Notes under the pieces: model-generated | What the model was told of the DNA's origin: nothing | What the model saw: the letters and a program-made list of their open reading frames with translations, nothing else | Database searches by the model: none | Assembly (NCBI GenBank): GCA_951406725.2 | Contig: OX597830.1 | Location: 21,886,001-21,950,000, forward strand | From: Octopus vulgaris | Lineage: Eukaryota | Reading direction: 5' to 3' | DNA: 64,000 nucleotides | Program-made: the position numbers and the translations under genes | Shown: positions 44,316 to 61,859 of the stretch, piece after piece | Layout of the letters: the number at the start of each line of letters is the position of its first letter | How positions within the stretch are numbered: position 1 is the stretch's first letter

Positions 44316-44709
44316 CCCAGTGCAGTTGCTTGACCTTTTGTGATCAGATGTATTCATCAATGGGTGATTAGTCTTCTGGCATCAGAGAAAGTCATTGAAG
44401 GAGTAAATGAAATTAGCCATAGCTACTTATCTCACCCAGACTATTGCCTAAGCCATACAAGGATTATACACATGCAGAACAATGCTAAACAAATGCCAAC
44501 CAAGCCACCTCCACACAGTTATTCTTATTCACCATCTAAAATAACTGTAGGCCATAGCAACTGATGGAGCTTTTATGTGATCTCTCAACTTGCTAGAAAT
44601 AGCAGTCAAATCTCTCAACTTACTATAATCTTTTTAAAAAATAACCCTAACCAGCTCTAAAAATTAAATATAGTTTTTACTGATTAGGCTTGTCTATGAG
44701 GGGCACTAG

Positions 44710-45685
44710 TGCTACATAAAAAGCGCTGGTGATGGTGCCACATTAAAAAGCGCTGGTGATGGTGTCACATTAAAAAGCGCTGGTGATGGTGCTACATTAA
44801 AAAGCGCTGGTGATGGTGCCACATTAAAAAGCCCTGGTGATGGTGCCACATTAAAAAGTGCTGGTGATGGTGCCACATTAAAAAGCGCTGGTGATGGTGC
44901 CTATTAAAAAGCCCTGGTGATGGTGCCACATTAAAAAGCGCTGGTGACGGTACCACATTAAAAAGCGCTGGTGACGGTACCACATTAAAAAGTACTGGTG
45001 ATGGTGCCACATTAAAAAGCGCTGGTGATGGTGCCACATTAAAAAGCGCTGGTGATAGTTCCACATTAAAAAGCGCTGGTGATAGTTCCACATTAAAAAG
45101 TACTGGTGATGGTGCCACATTAAAAAGCTCTGGTGATGGTGCCACATTAAAAAGCGCTGGTGATGGTGCCACATTAAAAAGTGCTGGTGATGGTGCCACA
45201 TTAAAAAGTGCTGGTGATGGTGTCACATTAAAGAGTGCTGGTGATGGTTCCACATTAAAAAGCGCTGGTGATCGTGCCACATTAAAAAGCGCTGGTGATG
45301 GTGCCACATTAAAAAGCGCTGGTGATGGTGCCACATTAAAAAGCGCTGGTGACGGTACCACATTAAAAAGCGCTGGTGACGGTACCACATTAAAAAGCGC
45401 TGGTGACGGTTCCACATTAAAAAGCGCTGGTGACGGTACCACATTAAAAAGCGCTGGTGACGGTGCCACATTAAAAAGCGCTGGTGACGGTACCACATTA
45501 AAAAGCGCTGGTGACGGTGCCACATTAAAGAGCGCTGGTGATGATGCCACATTAAAAAGTGCTGGTGATGGTACCACATTAAAAAGCGCTGGAGACGGTA
45601 CCACATTAAAAAGCGCTGGTGATGGTGCCACATTAAAGAGCGCTGGTGATGGTACCACATTAAAAAGTGCTGGTGCCACATAAAA
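44710..45685. repeat. 27-bp minisatellite, ~36 copies (GTGCCACATTAAAAAGCGCTGGTGATG)
   Basis: Head-to-tail units with no spacers. The array runs into a SINE/LINE-type tail beginning GTGCCATGTAAAAAAGCAC. Confidence 0.95.
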
Positions 45686-46118: not shown

Positions 46119-46929
46119 AGGCAGCGAGCTGGCAGAATCGTTAGCACGCCGGGCGAAATGCGTAGCCGTATTTCATCTGCCATTATGTTCTGAGTTCAAA
46201 TTCCGCCGAGGTTAACTTTGCCTTTCATCCTTTCGGGGTCGATAAATTAAGTACCAGTTACGCACTGGGGTCGATTTAATTGACTTAATCCATTTGCCTG
46301 TCCTTGGTATGTCTTCTCTGTGTTTAGGCCCTTGTGGGTAGTAAAGAAATAGGTATTTGTCTGCCGTTACGTTCTGAGTTCAAATTCCGCTGGGGCCGAC
46401 TTTGCCTTTCATCTTTTCGGGGTCAATAAATTAAGTACCAGTTATGCACTGGGGTCGATGTAATTGACTTAATCCATTTGTCTGTCCTTGTTTGTCCTCT
46501 GTGTTTAGCCCCTTGTAGGTAGTAAAGAAATAGGTATTTTGTCTGCTGCTACATTCTGAGTTCAAATTCCGCTGGGGTTGACTTTGCCTTTCATCCTTTC
46601 GGGGTCGATAAATTAAGTACTAGTTATGCACTGGGGTCGAGGTATTCAACTTAATCCCTTTGTCCTTGTTTGTCCCCTCTATGTTTAGCCCCTTGTGGGC
46701 AATAAAGAAATAAGAAACATTAGCACACCGGGCAAAATGCTTAGCGGTATTTCGTCTGCCGTTATGTTCTGAGTTCAAATTCCGCCGAGGTTGATTTGCC
46801 TTTCATTCTTTCGGGGTCGAAAAATTAAGTACCAGTTACACACTGGGGTCAATCTAATTGACTTAATCCGTTTGTCTGTCCTTGTTTGTCCCCTTTATAT
46901 TTAGCCCCTTGTGGGCAATAAAGAAATAA
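46119..46929 (+). repeat. Tandem array of four SINE units (~180-230 bp each)
   Basis: GTTCTGAGTTCAAATTCCG...CTTTCATCCTTTCGGGGTC...AAAGAAATA occurs four times head-to-tail. Confidence 0.9.
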
Positions 46930-55588: not shown

Positions 55589-56558
55589 TATGTAGGCAAA
55601 AAAGTAGGATGTCTGCTACAAATCAAGTAATGAAAAACTGAAAACATGGAAATGCTCTCATCACCAGTCATGGAGACCAGACTCATCATAGTTTGAGGAC
55701 ATTTAAATTCACAAGGTTTTATATATATTCATATATACAAACACATACACAAAGTGCCAACAGAAATGGTGTAGGTATATTATTGGTTTCATATTTTGGC
55801 ACAAGGCCAGTAATTTCGTGTTAGGGAGTAAACCTATTACATCGAAACCCCCCCCCGTGTCCAACTCGTGCTTACTTTATCAACCCCGGAGGGATGAACA
55901 GCAAAGTTGACCTCAGTGGAATTAGAACTCAGAACATAAAGACAGGCCAAATTTCACTAAGCATTTTGCCCTGCATTCTAACGATTCTGCCAACTCACCA
56001 TGTGAGTGTATTGTTATTATTATTACTGTTAAGGTATTGAGCTGGCAGAATCGTTAGCATGCTGAGCAAAATGCTTAGTGGCATTTCATCTACCTTTACG
56101 TTCTGAGTTCAAATTCTGCCCAGGTCAACTTAACCTTTCGTCCTTTTGGGGTCAATAAATTAAGTACCAGTGAAACACTGGGGTTGATGTAATCGACTAC
56201 TCCCCTCCCGCAAAATTTCTGGCCTTGTGCCTATAGTAGAAAGGATTATTAGTATTATTGTTGTTATTATTACTGTTACGGCAGTGAGCTGGCAGAATCG
56301 TTAGCACACCAGGCAAAATGTTTAGCAGCATTTTATCCATCTGTCCTAAAGACATTGAGTTCAAATCCCACCGATGTCGACTTTACTTTTCATCCTTTTA
56401 GGGTCAATAAACTAAGTACCAGTTAAGTGCTGGGGTCGATGTAATCGACTAGTCCCCTCCCCCAAATTTTCAGGCCTTGTGCCTATAGTAGAAAGGATTA
56501 TTATTATTATTAAGGTGGTGAGCTGGCAAAATCGTTAGTAGGCTGGGCAAAATGCTTG

Positions 56559-56913
56559 ATAATACAGTTCCGTATTTGAGAGATGAGGAATTATATACGT
56601 TATTTGCATTTGATGGATGTTTGTCATCTTGTTTGTTGTTAACACATTTTGGCTCCAGCCTTCATCAGGTGTCCTGGAGGAATTTCGAACCTGGGTTCTC
56701 ATTCCTAAGGTATTTTTCCAACATTGTTATTATTATTATTATTATTATCATTCAGTGACCTGAATAATAACATCGGGAAAATACCTTAGGAATGAGAACC
56801 CAGGTTCGAAATTCCCTCAGAACACCTGAAGAAGGCTGGAGAGTATATCAGCCGAAACATTGTTAACAACAAACAAGACGAGGACAAATATCCATCAAAT
56901 GTAAATAATGTAA
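56559..56913. mobile_element. Palindromic hammerhead-bearing element (copy 1), inserted in a SINE with 10-bp TSD
   Basis: ~160-bp inverted arms centred near 56757. AAAATGCTTG at 56549-58 and 56914-23. CTGAAGA A GGCTG..CAGCC GAAAC at 56826-56858. Confidence 0.85.
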
Positions 56914-58775
56914 AAAATGCTTGGTGGCATTTCGTCCGTCTTCATGTTCTGAGTTCAAATTCCGCCAGAGTTGACTGTTTTTTATCCTTTCAGGACCAAT
57001 AAAATAAAGCACCGGTTGAGTACTAGGGTTCAATGTAATCAACTAGTCTCCTCCCCTAAAAAATTTCAGACCTTGCGCCTTTCATAGAAACATTTATTTT
57101 TATTATTATTATGATAAGGTGAGCGAGCTGGCAGAATCATTAGCACATCAGACAAAATGCTTAGTGGTATTTCATGTTACTACATTCTGAGTTCAAATTC
57201 CACCGAGGTCGACTTTGCCTTTCATCCTTTCAGTGTTGATGGAAAAAGTACCAGTTACACACTGGGGTTGATGTAATTGACTAGCCCCCTCCACCAAAAT
57301 TTCAGGCCTTGTGCCTATAGTAGAAAAGATTATTATTATTATTAATGTTTGTACAATATTATATCGTAGTCTCATGATAGCAAAATTACCAAATGGTTTC
57401 ATGTTAGAAATGGAGATTCAACTCCAGCAATCATCAGAAATGGAATATTAAGTCCTGGGCTCTTTGGCACTGGCGGCCTGAAAGTGTCACATCCAGATTA
57501 TGGGTCATAGAGATGCTGAATAAAATCTAGAATGAGATTTATGGAGAAAACCGCCCAGACCAATTCAAAGGAAAGAAATACTTAGTCCACTGGAGTTATG
57601 TCCCTTGAATTAGGACAAAAAAAAAAGTCTATTCCAGTACATATTTGTTTGTAGGAAGAGGGTGGGATAAGGGCAAGGGGTGAAGGAGGGTTAATTTTTA
57701 AACAATGTATGCTTATATTTTTATGGGTTTATATATATTATAAAAGTTGGGTGTGAGGGGACATTATATAAATTTTTCACATTGCAGTGAGCAGGGGGAG
57801 AACATTGATGGTGGGAAGAGCCAATGTTTATATTTATGTTGCAGCTAACCAGTTCACTAAAGGATGCTTGCACTCAGAAGGGCAGGAGCAAAAAGGACTC
57901 ATTTAAAAAATTTTGTCAGGTGCTCAAGTAAAGAGAGAGTTCTTCAACATGATCCTTTTCTCAGCCAAACATAGTCTGCACCTCCTACTGCTGTTAAAGT
58001 AAGGTTTGAAATCCTCCGGTATCTTCTACTTGATTTTGAAAAATACACTACTTTTCTTCAATGTCCATATGTTTCCCAAGGGTTGTAGTATTATGCCTCT
58101 CCTGAACATTATACGAGGACTCGTGGTTTTTGAACCTGGTTCTCAAGGAACCTTCCATTCATTATTATTTAACATCCATTTTTTCATGCTTGCATGAGTC
58201 AGATAAAATTTTGTCAAAGCAGATTTTCACTGGCCTGATGCCCTTTCTGTTGCCAACCCTCACATTGTTGCCAAGCAAGATAATCTTTTTCCACCACTAT
58301 ACATGTTTTTCAAGGCTGGAAACAAACAACCTCACCTCTGTGGTGATGGTGCTCATTTACAAACATCATGCAATATCTAGACAAGGTTACACACACACAT
58401 CTTCTTTCAGTTTCCGTCTACCACTTGTAAGGTTTTGGTTGACCCAGGGCTATGGTACCATGCAGTGGGACTCAACCAAAGACCACATGGTTGGGAAGCA
58501 AGCTTCTTAACCACACAGCCATACCTGCACCCATCCATTACACTCACAGTGCCACACCTGTGCAGGTGCCATGTAAAAAGCAATCAGTCCATTTTGTAGG
58601 GTGATTGGTGTGAGGAAGGGCATCCACCTATAAAAACCATGCCAAACAGACACAGCCTGGGGTAGTCTTCTACTTGGCCAGCTCCTGTCAAACCGTCCAA
58701 CCCATACCAGCATGGAAGGAAGATATCAAACGATGATGATGATTACTGTCCCACTGGAACAGTAATCATATTATT

Positions 58776-59515
58776 AAGGTGATAAGCTAGCAGAATCGTT
58801 AGTAGGCTGGGCAAAATGCTTGGTAATGCAGTTCTATATTTGAGAGATGAGGAATTATGTACATTATATGGCTCAGTGGTTAGAGCATCAAGCTTACGAT
58901 CATGAGGTTGTGAGCTCGAATCCCGGACCGGGCTGCGTGTTGTGTTCTTGAGCAAGGCACTTTATTTCACGTTGCTCCAGTTCACTCAGCTGTAGAAATG
59001 AGTTGCGACGTCACTGGTGCCAAGCTGTATCGACCTTTGTCTTTCCCTTGGATGACACTGGTGGTGTGGAGAGGGAGGCTGGTATGCATGGGCGACTGCT
59101 GGTCTTCCATAAACAACCTTGCCCGGACTTGTGTCTAGGAGGGTAACTTTCTAGGTGCAATCCCATGGTCATTCATGACCGAAGGGGGTCTTTACCCTAT
59201 ACATTTGATGGATATTTGTCCTCATTTTGTTTGTTGTTAACACAACGTTTTGGCTGTTATACCCTCCAGCCTTCATCAGATGTCTTGGGGAAATTTCAAA
59301 CCTGGGTTCTCATTCCTAAGGTATTTTTCCAACATTATTATTATTATTGTTATTCAGTGGACTGAATAATAACATCGGGAAAATACCTTAGGAATGAGAA
59401 CCGAGGTTCGAAATTCCCCCAGAACACCTGATGAAGGCTGGAGAGTACATCAGATGAAACATTGTGTTAACAACAAAGATGAGAACAAATATCCATCAAA
59501 TGTAAATAATGTAAA
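58776..59515. mobile_element. SINE head plus palindromic hammerhead element (copy 2), with a later SINE inserted at 58868-59197
   Basis: Same GTTAGTAGGCTGGGCAAAATGCTTG junction as copy 1. Arms ~59200-59357 and 59361-59513. CTGATGA cores lie on both strands. Confidence 0.85.
59423..59468 (+). ncRNA. Minimal type-I hammerhead ribozyme motif (partly decayed)
   Basis: AACAC CTGATGA A GGCTG-loop-CAGAT GAAAC ATT GTGTT. Stem I AACAC/GTGTT is intact. Confidence 0.65.
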
Positions 59516-60162
59516 ATACGATTAGTTCCACTTGAACAGTAATTATATATATAGGTTGTGAGAACACTACCTCCACCTCGTATATAACAGTTTTTATATC
59601 ATATTGGCAGTTTAGTTGGCAATGGAGTTAACTCAGCATGAACAATCTGCCTCTGTTCTACATTTGGGCCAATTTACTAATATTTTCTTTATGTTAGATG
59701 CACAGCCAAAAGTGACTAACAGTATGTCTTAAATATTTTTCTGTATTTATGTTTCGGAGGAATGGTTATCAACTAAACAAAGGAAAATCCCGCCTGCACA
59801 AGTCTTCACATTAAGGGAAAAATGGGTATGTAAGCTATGCAACCTGGCAGTTTGTGTTTTCTCTTAGTGAGGATAGGGTCAGGCATATAACTAATCTTAT
59901 CCTTGACAGCCATGGCCTTCTAGTGAGGCACAATCCAACTCAAGGGACATAACTCCAGTGAACGAAATATTCATTTTCTCAGTTTTTATACAGCAGCTCC
60001 AAGACCCATAATCTGGATGTGACACTTTCAGGCCGCCAGTGACAAAGAGCCAAGGACATAACTACTCCATTCAGCTATTTCTGATGATGGCTGGATTTGA
60101 ATTTCCACTCCTAACATGAAACCATTTGGTAAGTTTGCTATCATGAGACTATAATATTATAT

Positions 60163-60488: not shown

Positions 60489-61600
60489 ATAATATTATAT
60501 ATAAATAATCCTTTCTACTTAGTGGTATTTCACCCATCGCTGCATCCTGAGTTCAAACCCCACTGAGATCAACTTTACCTTTGATCCTTTCGGGGTCAAT
60601 TAAATAAGTACCAGTTACGCACTGGGGTCGATGTAATCGACTTAATCCCTTCCCCCAAATTTTAGGCCTTGTGCTTTTAGTAGAAACAATTATATTATTC
60701 TTTTATTTGTTTCAGTCATTAGACTGTGACCATGCTGGGGTACCACCTTGATATTTTAGTCGAATGAATCAACTCCAGTACATATTCTGTCAGTCTCCTT
60801 TATGCTGAATCACTAAGTTACAGGGATGCAAACACACCAACACCAGTTGTCAAGCGGTGATAGGGGAAAAACACAAAACAGAAAGACACACACATACATA
60901 CGACGGGCTTATTTGAGTTTCTGTCTACTAAATTCACTTACAAGGCTTTAGTCAAACTGAGGCTATAATAGAAAACACTCACCCGAGGTGCCACACAGTA
61001 GGACTGAACCTAGAACCATGTAGTTGGGAAGCAAACTTCTTACCACACAGCCACAGCTGCACCTACGTATAAATAATTATAGTATATCCATGCTATCTCC
61101 TAATGAGTGACTATTTTTCCAATTCATAGATTTTTAGTCAACTAGATAGATAGTCAGACAGATAGAAAGGTAAGTAGAAGGATAGACATACTAGGGTAGA
61201 CAGATAGATATACTAGTGTAGAACGTGGTATCAAGTTGCATACTAGACTAAAATACTAGTCAATATGATAACTAAAATCGCTTGAAGGTGAGGCTGGTTT
61301 TAGTAAGGCTTCAGTCCCATGAAGCATTTCGCCCAGCATGCTAACAATTCTGCCAGCTTGCTGCCTTAATAATCATAATAATAATCCTTTCTACAAAAGG
61401 CACAAAGCCTGAAATTTTGGGGGAGATGACTCGTCGATTACATTGACCCCAGTGTTTCACTGGTACTTAATTTATTGACCCCAAAAGGATGAATGGCAAA
61501 GTTGACCTCAGCAGAATTTGAACTCAGAACATAGCAATGGGTGAAATACTGCTGTGGACTTCATCCGGCATGCTAACAACTCTGCCAACTCACTGCTTTT

Positions 61601-61636
<36 letters not shown>

Positions 61637-61859
61637 TTTCAAATTCTGGCTCAAGGCCAGTAATTTGGAGGGAGGGAGTAAGTCAATTACATCGAACCCA
61701 GTACTTATCTGGTACTCATTTTATCAACACCGAAAGGATGAAAGTCAAAGTCGACTTCAGTGGAATTTGAACTCAGAATGTAAAGACATGAAATGCCACT
61801 AAGCATTTTGCCCGGTGTGCTAACAGTTCTGCCAGCTTGCTGCCTTAATAATAATAATT

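What the first reader, a model, noticed from the sequence alone, without database searches (positions are those of the whole stretch)
56549..59548. Mobile palindromic element carrying a hammerhead motif on each strand, apparently re-copied with a SINE head
Seen: a ~355-bp fold-back (arms ~160 bp) sits inside a SINE between 10-bp direct repeats (AAAATGCTTG). A second copy 2.3 kb away includes the same SINE 5' head but not the rest of that SINE. It is flanked by an imperfect ~30-bp direct repeat (GATTA..GTyCCACTkGAACAGTAATyATAT at 58741-71 and 59520-48). Each of the four arms has a different lesion, but their consensus is a complete minimal type-I hammerhead: AACAC CUGAUGA A GGCUG-loop-CAGCC GAAAC GUU GUGUU. 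Known: minimal hammerheads with a palindromic stem III (AACGUU) occur in Penelope-like element termini and can cleave as dimers; PLEs often leave inverted termini. Inference: this is a non-autonomous ribozyme retroelement in which either strand's transcript carries a hammerhead, and a SINE-head/ribozyme chimera moved as a unit.
Basis: partly seen in the sequence, partly recalled or inferred. Interest (0 to 1): 0.85.

Follow-up and report, generated by a model that had tools for sequence, protein, structure and literature searches.

The report
Penelope retrotransposon with captured tRNA promoter
The palindrome is two truncated, broken ends of an abundant octopus Penelope-type jumping gene lying head to head; the unusual part is that this element's end repeat starts with a tRNA-like sequence that likely serves as its promoter.

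Summary
The fold-back, its 10-bp target duplication and the hammerhead consensus are real. It is not a stand-alone palindromic ribozyme element. Each arm is a 5'-truncated end repeat (pLTR) of a Penelope/Poseidon-type retrotransposon with roughly 10^4 loci. I found the coding parent: the arm runs in frame into an RT + GIY-YIG-type ORF. Pairs lie head to head with variable junctions, and 45 of 53 have the 34-nt tail on one arm only, both known Penelope traits. All four window hammerheads are broken, and a through-transcript would bury them in a long duplex. The SINE-head chimera exists only in these two copies.

What seems new: the pLTR begins with a 75-nt tRNA-like head with A and B boxes, directly behind the ORF stop (41 of 44 loci). 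Of 146 copies reaching the head, 88 end at its 5' edge, and the ORF frames tested lack T4 runs. This suggests a Pol III-driven Penelope that sheds SINE-like copies of itself. That is untested, and I could not check Repbase or Dfam.

The parts
56512..56558 (+). 5' part of the host SINE (unrelated tRNA-type SINE in a local tandem array); it resumes at 56914
56549..56558 (+). left target-site duplication, 10 bp
56559..56592 (-). copy 1 left arm: PLE 'tail' (long 3' end; ORF codons ..SSSLKYRTV in coding copies)
56593..56755 (-). copy 1 left arm: pLTR body and (AAT)n, 5'-truncated at the end of the tRNA-like head
56641..56673 (-). broken minimal hammerhead: 10-nt deletion of loop II, G12->A, stem III lost
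56753..56913 (+). copy 1 right arm: last 10 nt of the tRNA-like head, short (AAT)n, pLTR body ending at the short 3' site (no tail); about 3-nt microhomology with the left arm at 56753-55
56821..56864 (+). broken minimal hammerhead: G16.2->A and a 2-nt deletion at the cleavage site
56914..56923 (+). right target-site duplication, 10 bp
58741..58771 (+). left copy of the imperfect ~30-bp repeat flanking copy 2; a short hairpin
58776..58822 (+). duplicated 5' part of the host SINE, with the same private variants as 56512-58
58823..58869 (-). copy 2 left arm, tail and 3' end
58870..59197 (+). later insertion of an unrelated tRNA SINE (~330 bp; other copies elsewhere in the window) into the left arm
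59198..59357 (-). copy 2 left arm, remainder; hammerhead at 59239-59284 broken by G12->A
59355..59515 (+). copy 2 right arm; hammerhead at 59423-59468 broken in stem II and at G16.2
59520..59548 (+). right copy of the imperfect ~30-bp repeat

Best explanation
The fold-back is two 5'-truncated end repeats (pLTRs) of a Penelope/Poseidon-type retrotransposon lying head to head between one target duplication, likely made in a single insertion by that element's own reverse transcriptase-endonuclease.

Shown by sequence: the full element is about 2.75 kb. It runs tRNA-like head (75 nt), (AAT)n, ATG, minimal hammerhead, short end site, 34-nt tail, rest of the ORF (RT, GIY-YIG-type endonuclease), stop, then ~30 nt and the head again.

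Inferred from published work on Anolis Poseidon: the enzyme nicks both target strands 7-16 bp apart. It primes cDNA at two fixed sites in the ORF start, the long site on one strand and the short site on the other. The two cDNAs run towards the RNA 5' end, stop at variable points and join in the middle.

Inferred here: the RNA usually starts at the tRNA-like head, most likely from its A/B boxes (Pol III). Most insertions are therefore short SINE-like head+pLTR units or fragments.

The window copies are dead. Copy 2 is most likely an old local DNA-level duplicate of copy 1 (about 60%), later hit by another SINE.
For: Parent element. The head lies directly behind the ORF end in 41 of 44 ORF-end-seeded loci. 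The body lies in sense just upstream of the ORF start in 17 of 30 ORF-start-seeded loci, query included. One natural copy reads from the body ATG through the tail into HLTFL..R without a stop (L390). The ORF has DKG, AMGSPLSP, YVDD and CVYSIPCSCG..Y..E..H..H motifs. It is 53-68% identical to RT proteins with PF00078. Intact 847-aa P0154 carries the same hammerhead-coding peptide at its N-terminus.

Insertion signature. Of 53 head-to-head pairs, 45 are long+short, 3 short+short, 5 long+truncated and 0 long+long. TSD score >=9 in 32 of 53 pairs versus 6 of 265 mismatched controls. 3' ends are bimodal: 62 at body positions 138-161, 1 at 162-175, 65 at 176-184. Junctions vary.

Head. Best matches among 27 tRNA genes from this genome are tRNA-Arg (z 8.4, 7.7, 7.3). 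The A box matches, the spacer is 33 nt, and the B box matches 10 of 11 positions (against the consensus in PMC8969392). Of 146 copies reaching the head, 88 end between -30 and +4. The stop rate is 0.047-0.049/nt at -12..+4, versus 0.001-0.002 upstream and 0.002-0.012 downstream.

Copy 2. It shares private variants with copy 1, is 7.6% diverged from it, and its junction is unique in the genome.
Against: No intact ORF was seen in G000: the longest open frame was 442 aa among 150 scored hits, so the enzyme is inferred from decayed copies.

Pfam GIY-YIG does not score on the octopus frames and is weak on relatives (E 0.017 and 0.23). ARAGORN called 0 tRNAs in 18 loci and Rfam tRNA missed 14 loci.

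The pile-up could be an RT stall or processing at the hairpin and tRNA fold at the head boundary. The stops at -7 to -17 are partly an alignment artefact of that hairpin.

In a wider set of 92 pairs, two show a tail on both arms (L216, a three-part insertion, and L277).

Arms within a pair are more alike than shuffled pairs (66 of 76 versus 0.61 at site 58; 60 versus 14 shared rare changes). This also fits fold-back self-priming or gene conversion.

Both breakpoints of copy 2 lie within ~5 nt of a SINE start and of the short RT site, which a random duplication does not predict.
Confidence: 0.85

Rival explanations
1. The palindrome is itself the mobile unit: a non-autonomous ribozyme element whose transcript from either strand carries a working hammerhead.
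For: Head-to-head pairs with a TSD around the whole unit are common: 37 of 68 hammerhead-seeded loci are inverted. Arms within a pair are correlated.
Against: Junctions and arm lengths differ at nearly every locus. 29 of 68 loci are single copies. The arms are ends of a coding element. The duplex buries the motifs. Only 15 of 100 unselected copies have an intact motif, and the core mutates like the rest of the body (3.8% versus 4.2%).
Confidence: 0.04
2. Same element, but the inverted arm is made by fold-back self-priming of one cDNA, which is then cut at the short site, rather than by two priming events.
For: It explains one tail per pair directly. Arm concordance exceeds all 500 shuffles at sites 48, 58, 70 and 127. 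Both arms can extend into the ORF (L306, L336). There is a hairpin at the head boundary.
Against: 9 of 76 pairs differ A/T at site 58 and 7 of 67 at site 129, more than the background rate suggests, though these sites may be mutation hot spots. The Anolis protein extends both strands in vitro (PMC11167929).
Confidence: 0.35
3. The head is a fossil SINE or tRNA insertion in the pLTR with no promoter role. Transcription is by Pol II from about the same place, or the 5' pile-up is an RT stall or RNase P-like cut.
For: D. virilis Penelope uses Inr/DPE-type core promoter elements in its pLTR (PMC2377424, passages). An mRNA must be translated. There is a hairpin at the boundary. The T4 test is weak (P 0.03-0.10) and the copies tested are not independent.
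Against: The boxes match at the right spacing in the family majority. The stop is sharp at the tRNA 5' end. 0 T4 runs in the ORF frames versus 8 in each of two other PLE families of the same genome.
Confidence: 0.4
4. Copy 2 is a one-off retrocopy of a chimeric RNA that began at the host SINE start and was primed at the short site.
For: Both breakpoints fall within ~5 nt of those two sites, and a direct repeat flanks it.
Against: T4 and T5 runs on the + strand of the left arm should stop Pol III. The priming region would be double-stranded. The ~30-bp repeat is longer than the 7-16-bp TSDs seen. The copy landed only 2.3 kb away. There is no third copy.
Confidence: 0.3

Closest known systems
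Penelope/Poseidon clade of Penelope-like elements (D. virilis Penelope; Anolis PAc)
   Same: Single ORF with RT and C-terminal GIY-YIG-type domain, no linker zinc finger. Hammerhead in the pLTR at the ORF start. Optional ~34-nt tail that is ORF sequence. Inverted 5'-truncated partner. Tail at one end only (PMC8557442, PMC11167929, PMC2377424).
   Different: Here the pLTR starts with a tRNA-like head with A/B boxes followed by (AAT)n, and most copies are head+pLTR only. D. virilis Penelope has Inr/DPE promoter elements.
Minimal hammerheads of metazoan PLEs (Cervera and de la Pena 2014, PMC4209133)
   Same: Extra base between A9 and stem II, G10.1-C11.1, palindromic stem III without loop. That paper already reports pairs 100-700 bp apart on opposite strands.
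   Different: No new ribozyme feature. The cleavage triplet is GUU. Activity was not tested.
Schistosoma SINE-like hammerhead repeats (Sm-alpha/Sj-alpha) and animal non-LTR retrozymes
   Same: Short non-coding units joining a Pol III-type promoter to a type-I hammerhead (PMC6765202 passages). Retrozymes are proposed to derive from pLTRs (bioRxiv 10.64898/2026.07.22.740005).
   Different: Those are head-to-tail arrays with no coding parent shown to hold the same head. These are dispersed singles or head-to-head pairs, and the parent carries the head.
TRIMp3 elements (Cassandra, Helenus, Ajax; PMC10886601)
   Same: A small-RNA-derived Pol III promoter inside the terminal repeat of a retroelement.
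   Different: Those are non-autonomous LTR elements. This is the pLTR of a coding PLE.
Classical tRNA SINEs (SINEBase definition, PMC3531059)
   Same: tRNA-like head, <700 bp, 3' part recognised by a partner RT.
   Different: The partner is a PLE, not a LINE. No simple-repeat 3' tail. The head is part of the parent. A tRNA-like stretch inside an autonomous LINE (RTE-1_DAn) is mentioned in PMC5786205.

Membership tests
Penelope/Poseidon PLE | Single ORF with PLE-type reverse transcriptase | tested here: met
   DKG, AMGSPLSP, YVDD motifs in decayed copies. 68, 62, 53, 51% identity to the four best relatives; PF00078 above cut-off in 9 of 9 relatives scanned.
Penelope/Poseidon PLE | [quoted passage not shown] | tested here: met
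   By motif inspection: CVYSIPCSCG.LYKGETC..EEH..ADH. Pfam PF01541 does not score on the octopus frames and is weak on relatives. No structure was computed.
Penelope/Poseidon PLE | No CX2-5CxxC linker finger (it marks Neptune/Nematis; PMC8557442) | tested here: met
   Absent before the GIY motif; present in the other, 781-aa family. No tree with named references was built.
Penelope/Poseidon PLE | pLTRs from partial tandems; inverted 5'-truncated copy | tested here: met
   ORF end-head-body-ORF start in L374 and L388; 53 inverted pairs.
Penelope/Poseidon PLE | Optional 30-40-nt tail that continues into the ORF, usually at one end | tested here: met
   Bimodal 3' ends; 45 of 53 pairs long+short; tail in frame with the ORF.
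minimal type-I hammerhead | CUGAnGA / GAAA core, stems I and II, palindromic stem III, NUH | tested here: met
   Met in the family majority and in the MFE fold of one natural copy. Not met in any of the four window arms.
minimal type-I hammerhead | Stem covariation | tested here: inconclusive
   Nearly none within the family. One T-A to C-G pair change is inferred from peptides of a second family; both changes are CpG-type, and no DNA was obtained.
minimal type-I hammerhead | Self-cleavage (as dimer or protein-assisted) | not testable with these tools
   Needs an in vitro assay.
SINE (SINEBase definition) | Head from a Pol III RNA with A and B boxes | tested here: met
   tRNA-Arg best of 27 tRNA genes; boxes and 33-nt spacer. 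ARAGORN and Rfam do not call it. The isotype is tentative.
SINE (SINEBase definition) | Transcribed by Pol III from the internal promoter | tested here: inconclusive
   5' pile-up and T4 depletion are indirect.
SINE (SINEBase definition) | Depends on a partner LINE; simple-repeat 3' tail | tested here: not met
   The partner is a PLE. 3' ends are fixed sites followed by unrelated flank.
non-LTR retrozyme | Head-to-tail tandem units each with a hammerhead | tested here: not met
   119 loci classified: 67 inverted, 50 single-strand, 2 other; no long array seen.
MITE / fold-back DNA element | Fixed terminal inverted repeats and fixed-length TSD | tested here: not met
   Unequal ends, variable junctions, TSD 7-16 bp.

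The most novel reading that the evidence does not exclude
A Penelope retrotransposon captured a tRNA-Arg-derived sequence as the start of its pLTR and is driven by RNA polymerase III. PLE reverse transcriptase primes near the ORF start, so short Pol III transcripts are complete substrates: the element generates tens of thousands of SINE-like copies of its own promoter end, a SINE-like family born inside its parent and mobilised by a PLE rather than a LINE. The lack of T4 runs allows the stronger version (about 0.2) that Pol III reads through the whole 2.4-kb ORF. The head-to-head pairs would then seed the octopus transcriptome with ~150-bp duplexes for A-to-I editing.
Probability: 0.45. Interest if true: 0.7.

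Novelty: new variant of a known kind. Interest (0 to 1): 0.5.

Why it matters
As reported, the palindrome with two hammerheads is a known by-product of Penelope insertion. The tRNA-like head inside a coding PLE's pLTR is what matters. If it is the promoter, it gives a direct route from PLE to SINE-like or retrozyme-like elements, a link proposed but not shown with a parent in the papers I read. It would also be a PLE counterpart of Cassandra/Helenus. The ~10^4 loci, with one long and one short end in most pairs, are a large natural data set for the open question of how PLEs make inverted ends and tails. The pairs are also candidate double-stranded substrates for RNA editing in cephalopods.

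Tried and rejected
Rfam scans gave no hammerhead or useful hit, only microRNA-hairpin noise and one weak tRNA hit on another SINE.

The young 781-aa PLE family, first found with PF01541, was rejected as parent. It shares no DNA with the arm, has a linker finger (Neptune type), targets (TA)n and is 28% identical to P0154.

Octopus OR1/OR2 SINEs were considered. Papers list them as CORE-SINEs. The original paper is not held and the SINEBase supplements could not be read, so identity with OK, OR1 or OR2 was not tested by sequence.

DNA of the second family was not found in G000 (best 62% identity), nor in metagenome, prokaryote or viral collections.

No empty site for copy 2 was found.

RNA: no RNA holder was listed by the run finder. 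In one raw RNA run, 6,529 of 12.9 million reads lay on the body, equally on both strands, with no place where many molecules begin or end. The head was skipped by the repeat filter. This is uninformative on cleavage or start sites.

A dimer-hammerhead energy could not be evaluated (zero-loop structure).

A copy-number extrapolation of 145,000 from 1 of 58 exact matches was dropped. Unselected DNA gave 0 hits in 339 kb, and flanks gave about 1 independent cluster in 165 kb. With 39,839 first-look candidates, this suggests about 10^4 loci.

Three look-ups of earlier findings returned nothing.
Full report
OBSERVATION. The fold-back at 56559-56913, the exact 10-bp repeat at 56549-58 / 56914-23 inside a host SINE, the second copy, and its ~30-bp flanking repeat are all present. 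The arms are unequal, since the left carries a tail. Copy 2 holds an unmentioned ~330-bp SINE in its left arm. Against the family majority all four hammerheads are broken; the left arms share G12->A and the right arms share G16.2->A. Rfam finds no hammerhead.

THE FAMILY. The genome (2.8 Gb; a source label on a matching protein names Octopus) holds 2,507 exact hits of a 34-nt hammerhead pattern, 1,394 of a 33-nt head pattern and 1,783 of a 26-nt tail pattern, with 0 for the reversed controls. I estimate about 10^4 loci. The unit is a 75-nt head, (AAT)n(AAC)n, and a 184-nt body. The column majority of 187 body alignments is a complete minimal type-I hammerhead with an extra A before stem II, ACGU stem III and GUU triplet. 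Copies decay neutrally: 15 of 100 unselected copies are fully intact, and substitution is 3.8% in the core versus 4.2% elsewhere.

ARCHITECTURE. I classified 119 non-redundant loci, taken as the first matches along contig 1 (100 listed per pattern; I used 70, 30 and 30 and dropped 11 duplicates). Of these, 53 are head-to-head pairs with both bodies, 14 are inverted with one body, 50 are single and 2 other. Among the 53 pairs, 45 have one long and one short 3' end, 3 two short, 5 long plus truncated, and none two long. Thirteen of these pairs were seeded by the tail, and two (L126, L213) share a TSD and may be one event. In a wider set of 92 pairs, two show a tail on both arms. TSDs of 7-16 bp enclose the pair (32 of 53 versus 6 of 265 controls). 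Central junctions vary, so the palindrome is made anew at insertion and is not copied from a master.

THE PARENT. Many loci shared the same DNA upstream of the head, and it encodes the end of a PLE ORF. In 41 of 44 ORF-end-seeded loci the head follows the ORF directly. In 17 of 30 ORF-start-seeded loci the body lies in sense just upstream, and in L390 the body ATG reads through hammerhead and tail into the conserved N-terminus. L335 spans both pLTRs, about 2.75 kb. RT motifs, a GIY-YIG-type end with CCHH and no linker finger place it in Penelope/Poseidon by the criteria in PMC8557442 (passages); no tree was built. An intact 847-aa relative begins with the same hammerhead-coding peptide. No intact ORF was seen in G000.

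MECHANISM. Anolis Poseidon protein cuts and extends both strands and starts cDNA at two sites inside the ORF start, which define the tail. Its hammerhead needs protein and is not required for insertion (PMC11167929, parts 1-2 of 4). Inverted truncated partners and a tail at one end are described (PMC8557442), as are minimal hammerheads paired on opposite strands (PMC4209133, parts 1-2 of 4). The data here fit priming at the long site on one strand and the short site on the other (inferred). Arms are more alike than chance, so fold-back of one cDNA remains open. A transcript through the pair folds as one duplex (-199 kcal/mol), so 'a ribozyme on each strand' is not a working design.

THE HEAD. 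It aligns best to tRNA-Arg among 27 tRNA genes of this genome. It has an A box, a 33-nt spacer and a B box (consensus from PMC8969392, passage), though ARAGORN and Rfam do not call it. Of 146 copies that reach it, 88 end at -30..+4 and 20 continue into the ORF; the stop rate per base at -12..+4 is roughly 30 times that upstream. ORF frames of three copies hold 0 T4 runs against 2.6, 2.9 and 1.8 expected (P 0.04, 0.03, 0.10), while two other PLE families hold 8 each. Whole-element scans found one T4 run in three of four copies. This points to Pol III but does not prove it; a stall at the boundary hairpin or a Pol II start at the same place would look similar.

COPY 2. It shares the insertion point, junction and private variants with copy 1 and is 7.6% diverged from it (29 of 384). 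The junction occurs only twice in the genome. It sits inside an old inverted-repeat element. Local DNA copying is favoured. A one-off retrocopy is possible because both breakpoints lie near biologically meaningful sites.

NOVELTY. Ten full-text searches returned no paper whose listing, or whose passages that I read, describes a tRNA-derived head in a PLE pLTR. I read passages of 14 papers and none in full. Beyond those cited above: PMC10886601, PMC4758252, PMC5804259, PMC3531059, PMC6765202, PMC7229834, PMC2377424, PMC5786205 and PMC4824008 as keyword passages, and the bioRxiv preprint 10.64898/2026.07.22.740005 as part 1 of 5 plus passages. Repbase, Dfam, the 1994 octopus SINE paper and the SINEBase supplements were not available and may already hold this family. 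Precedents exist for each piece: Pol III SINE-like hammerhead repeats in Schistosoma, TRIMp3 elements, and a tRNA-like stretch in an RTE LINE.

VERDICT. The reported feature is a known PLE signature. The family behind it is a new variant worth moderate interest (0.5).

Noticed in passing
proteins P0002-P0151 (unnamed contigs): A second repeat family in another organism encodes a related peptide over hammerhead and tail. It has the same two end points (52 with tail, 41 without, of 93 motifs), antisense-then-sense reads in 14 proteins, some head-to-tail tandems, and an inferred compensatory change in stem II. Two peptides hint at A/B-box-like sequence upstream. This is a lead only; no DNA was obtained.
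   Followed up: partly
L235:1342-1525, RNA run X24: 29 of 52 listed variant sites are A>G or T>C (at least 5 are private to the reference copy), against 6 of 32 variant columns in genomic copies. This fits A-to-I editing of fold-backs, but the run is unstranded in effect, may be another species, and has no matched DNA.
   Followed up: partly
L161-L172, e.g. G000:C16:20835000-20840500: A young Neptune-type PLE family: many copies with a 781-aa open frame, 98-100% identical, an upstream second ORF, (TA)n targets, and a hammerhead-like motif with U at position 3 in its pLTR.
   Followed up: partly
P0001: A predicted Octopus sinensis protein with cysteine-rich, TNF-receptor-like repeats (recalled resemblance) starts with about 37 residues from this pLTR: an exonised copy or a gene-model error.
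   Followed up: no
window 57356-57528 and 59981-60162: About 170-bp terminal inverted repeats of an old low-copy DNA element (70-80% identical relatives) that enclose copy 2 and about 1.4 kb of later insertions.
   Followed up: partly
window 56009-57344 and 61317-61858: Tandem arrays of the host SINE, in opposite orientation about 4-5 kb apart.
   Followed up: no
L321:2060-2096 (head boundary in coding copies): The ~18 nt before the head are a degenerate inverted copy of the head's first bases and form a hairpin. The head may have entered the pLTR through the element's own inversion mechanism.
   Followed up: no
window 44709-45675 and 46188-46712: A 27-bp minisatellite (36 copies, 92% matches) and a 182-bp tandem of SINE sequence.
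   Followed up: no
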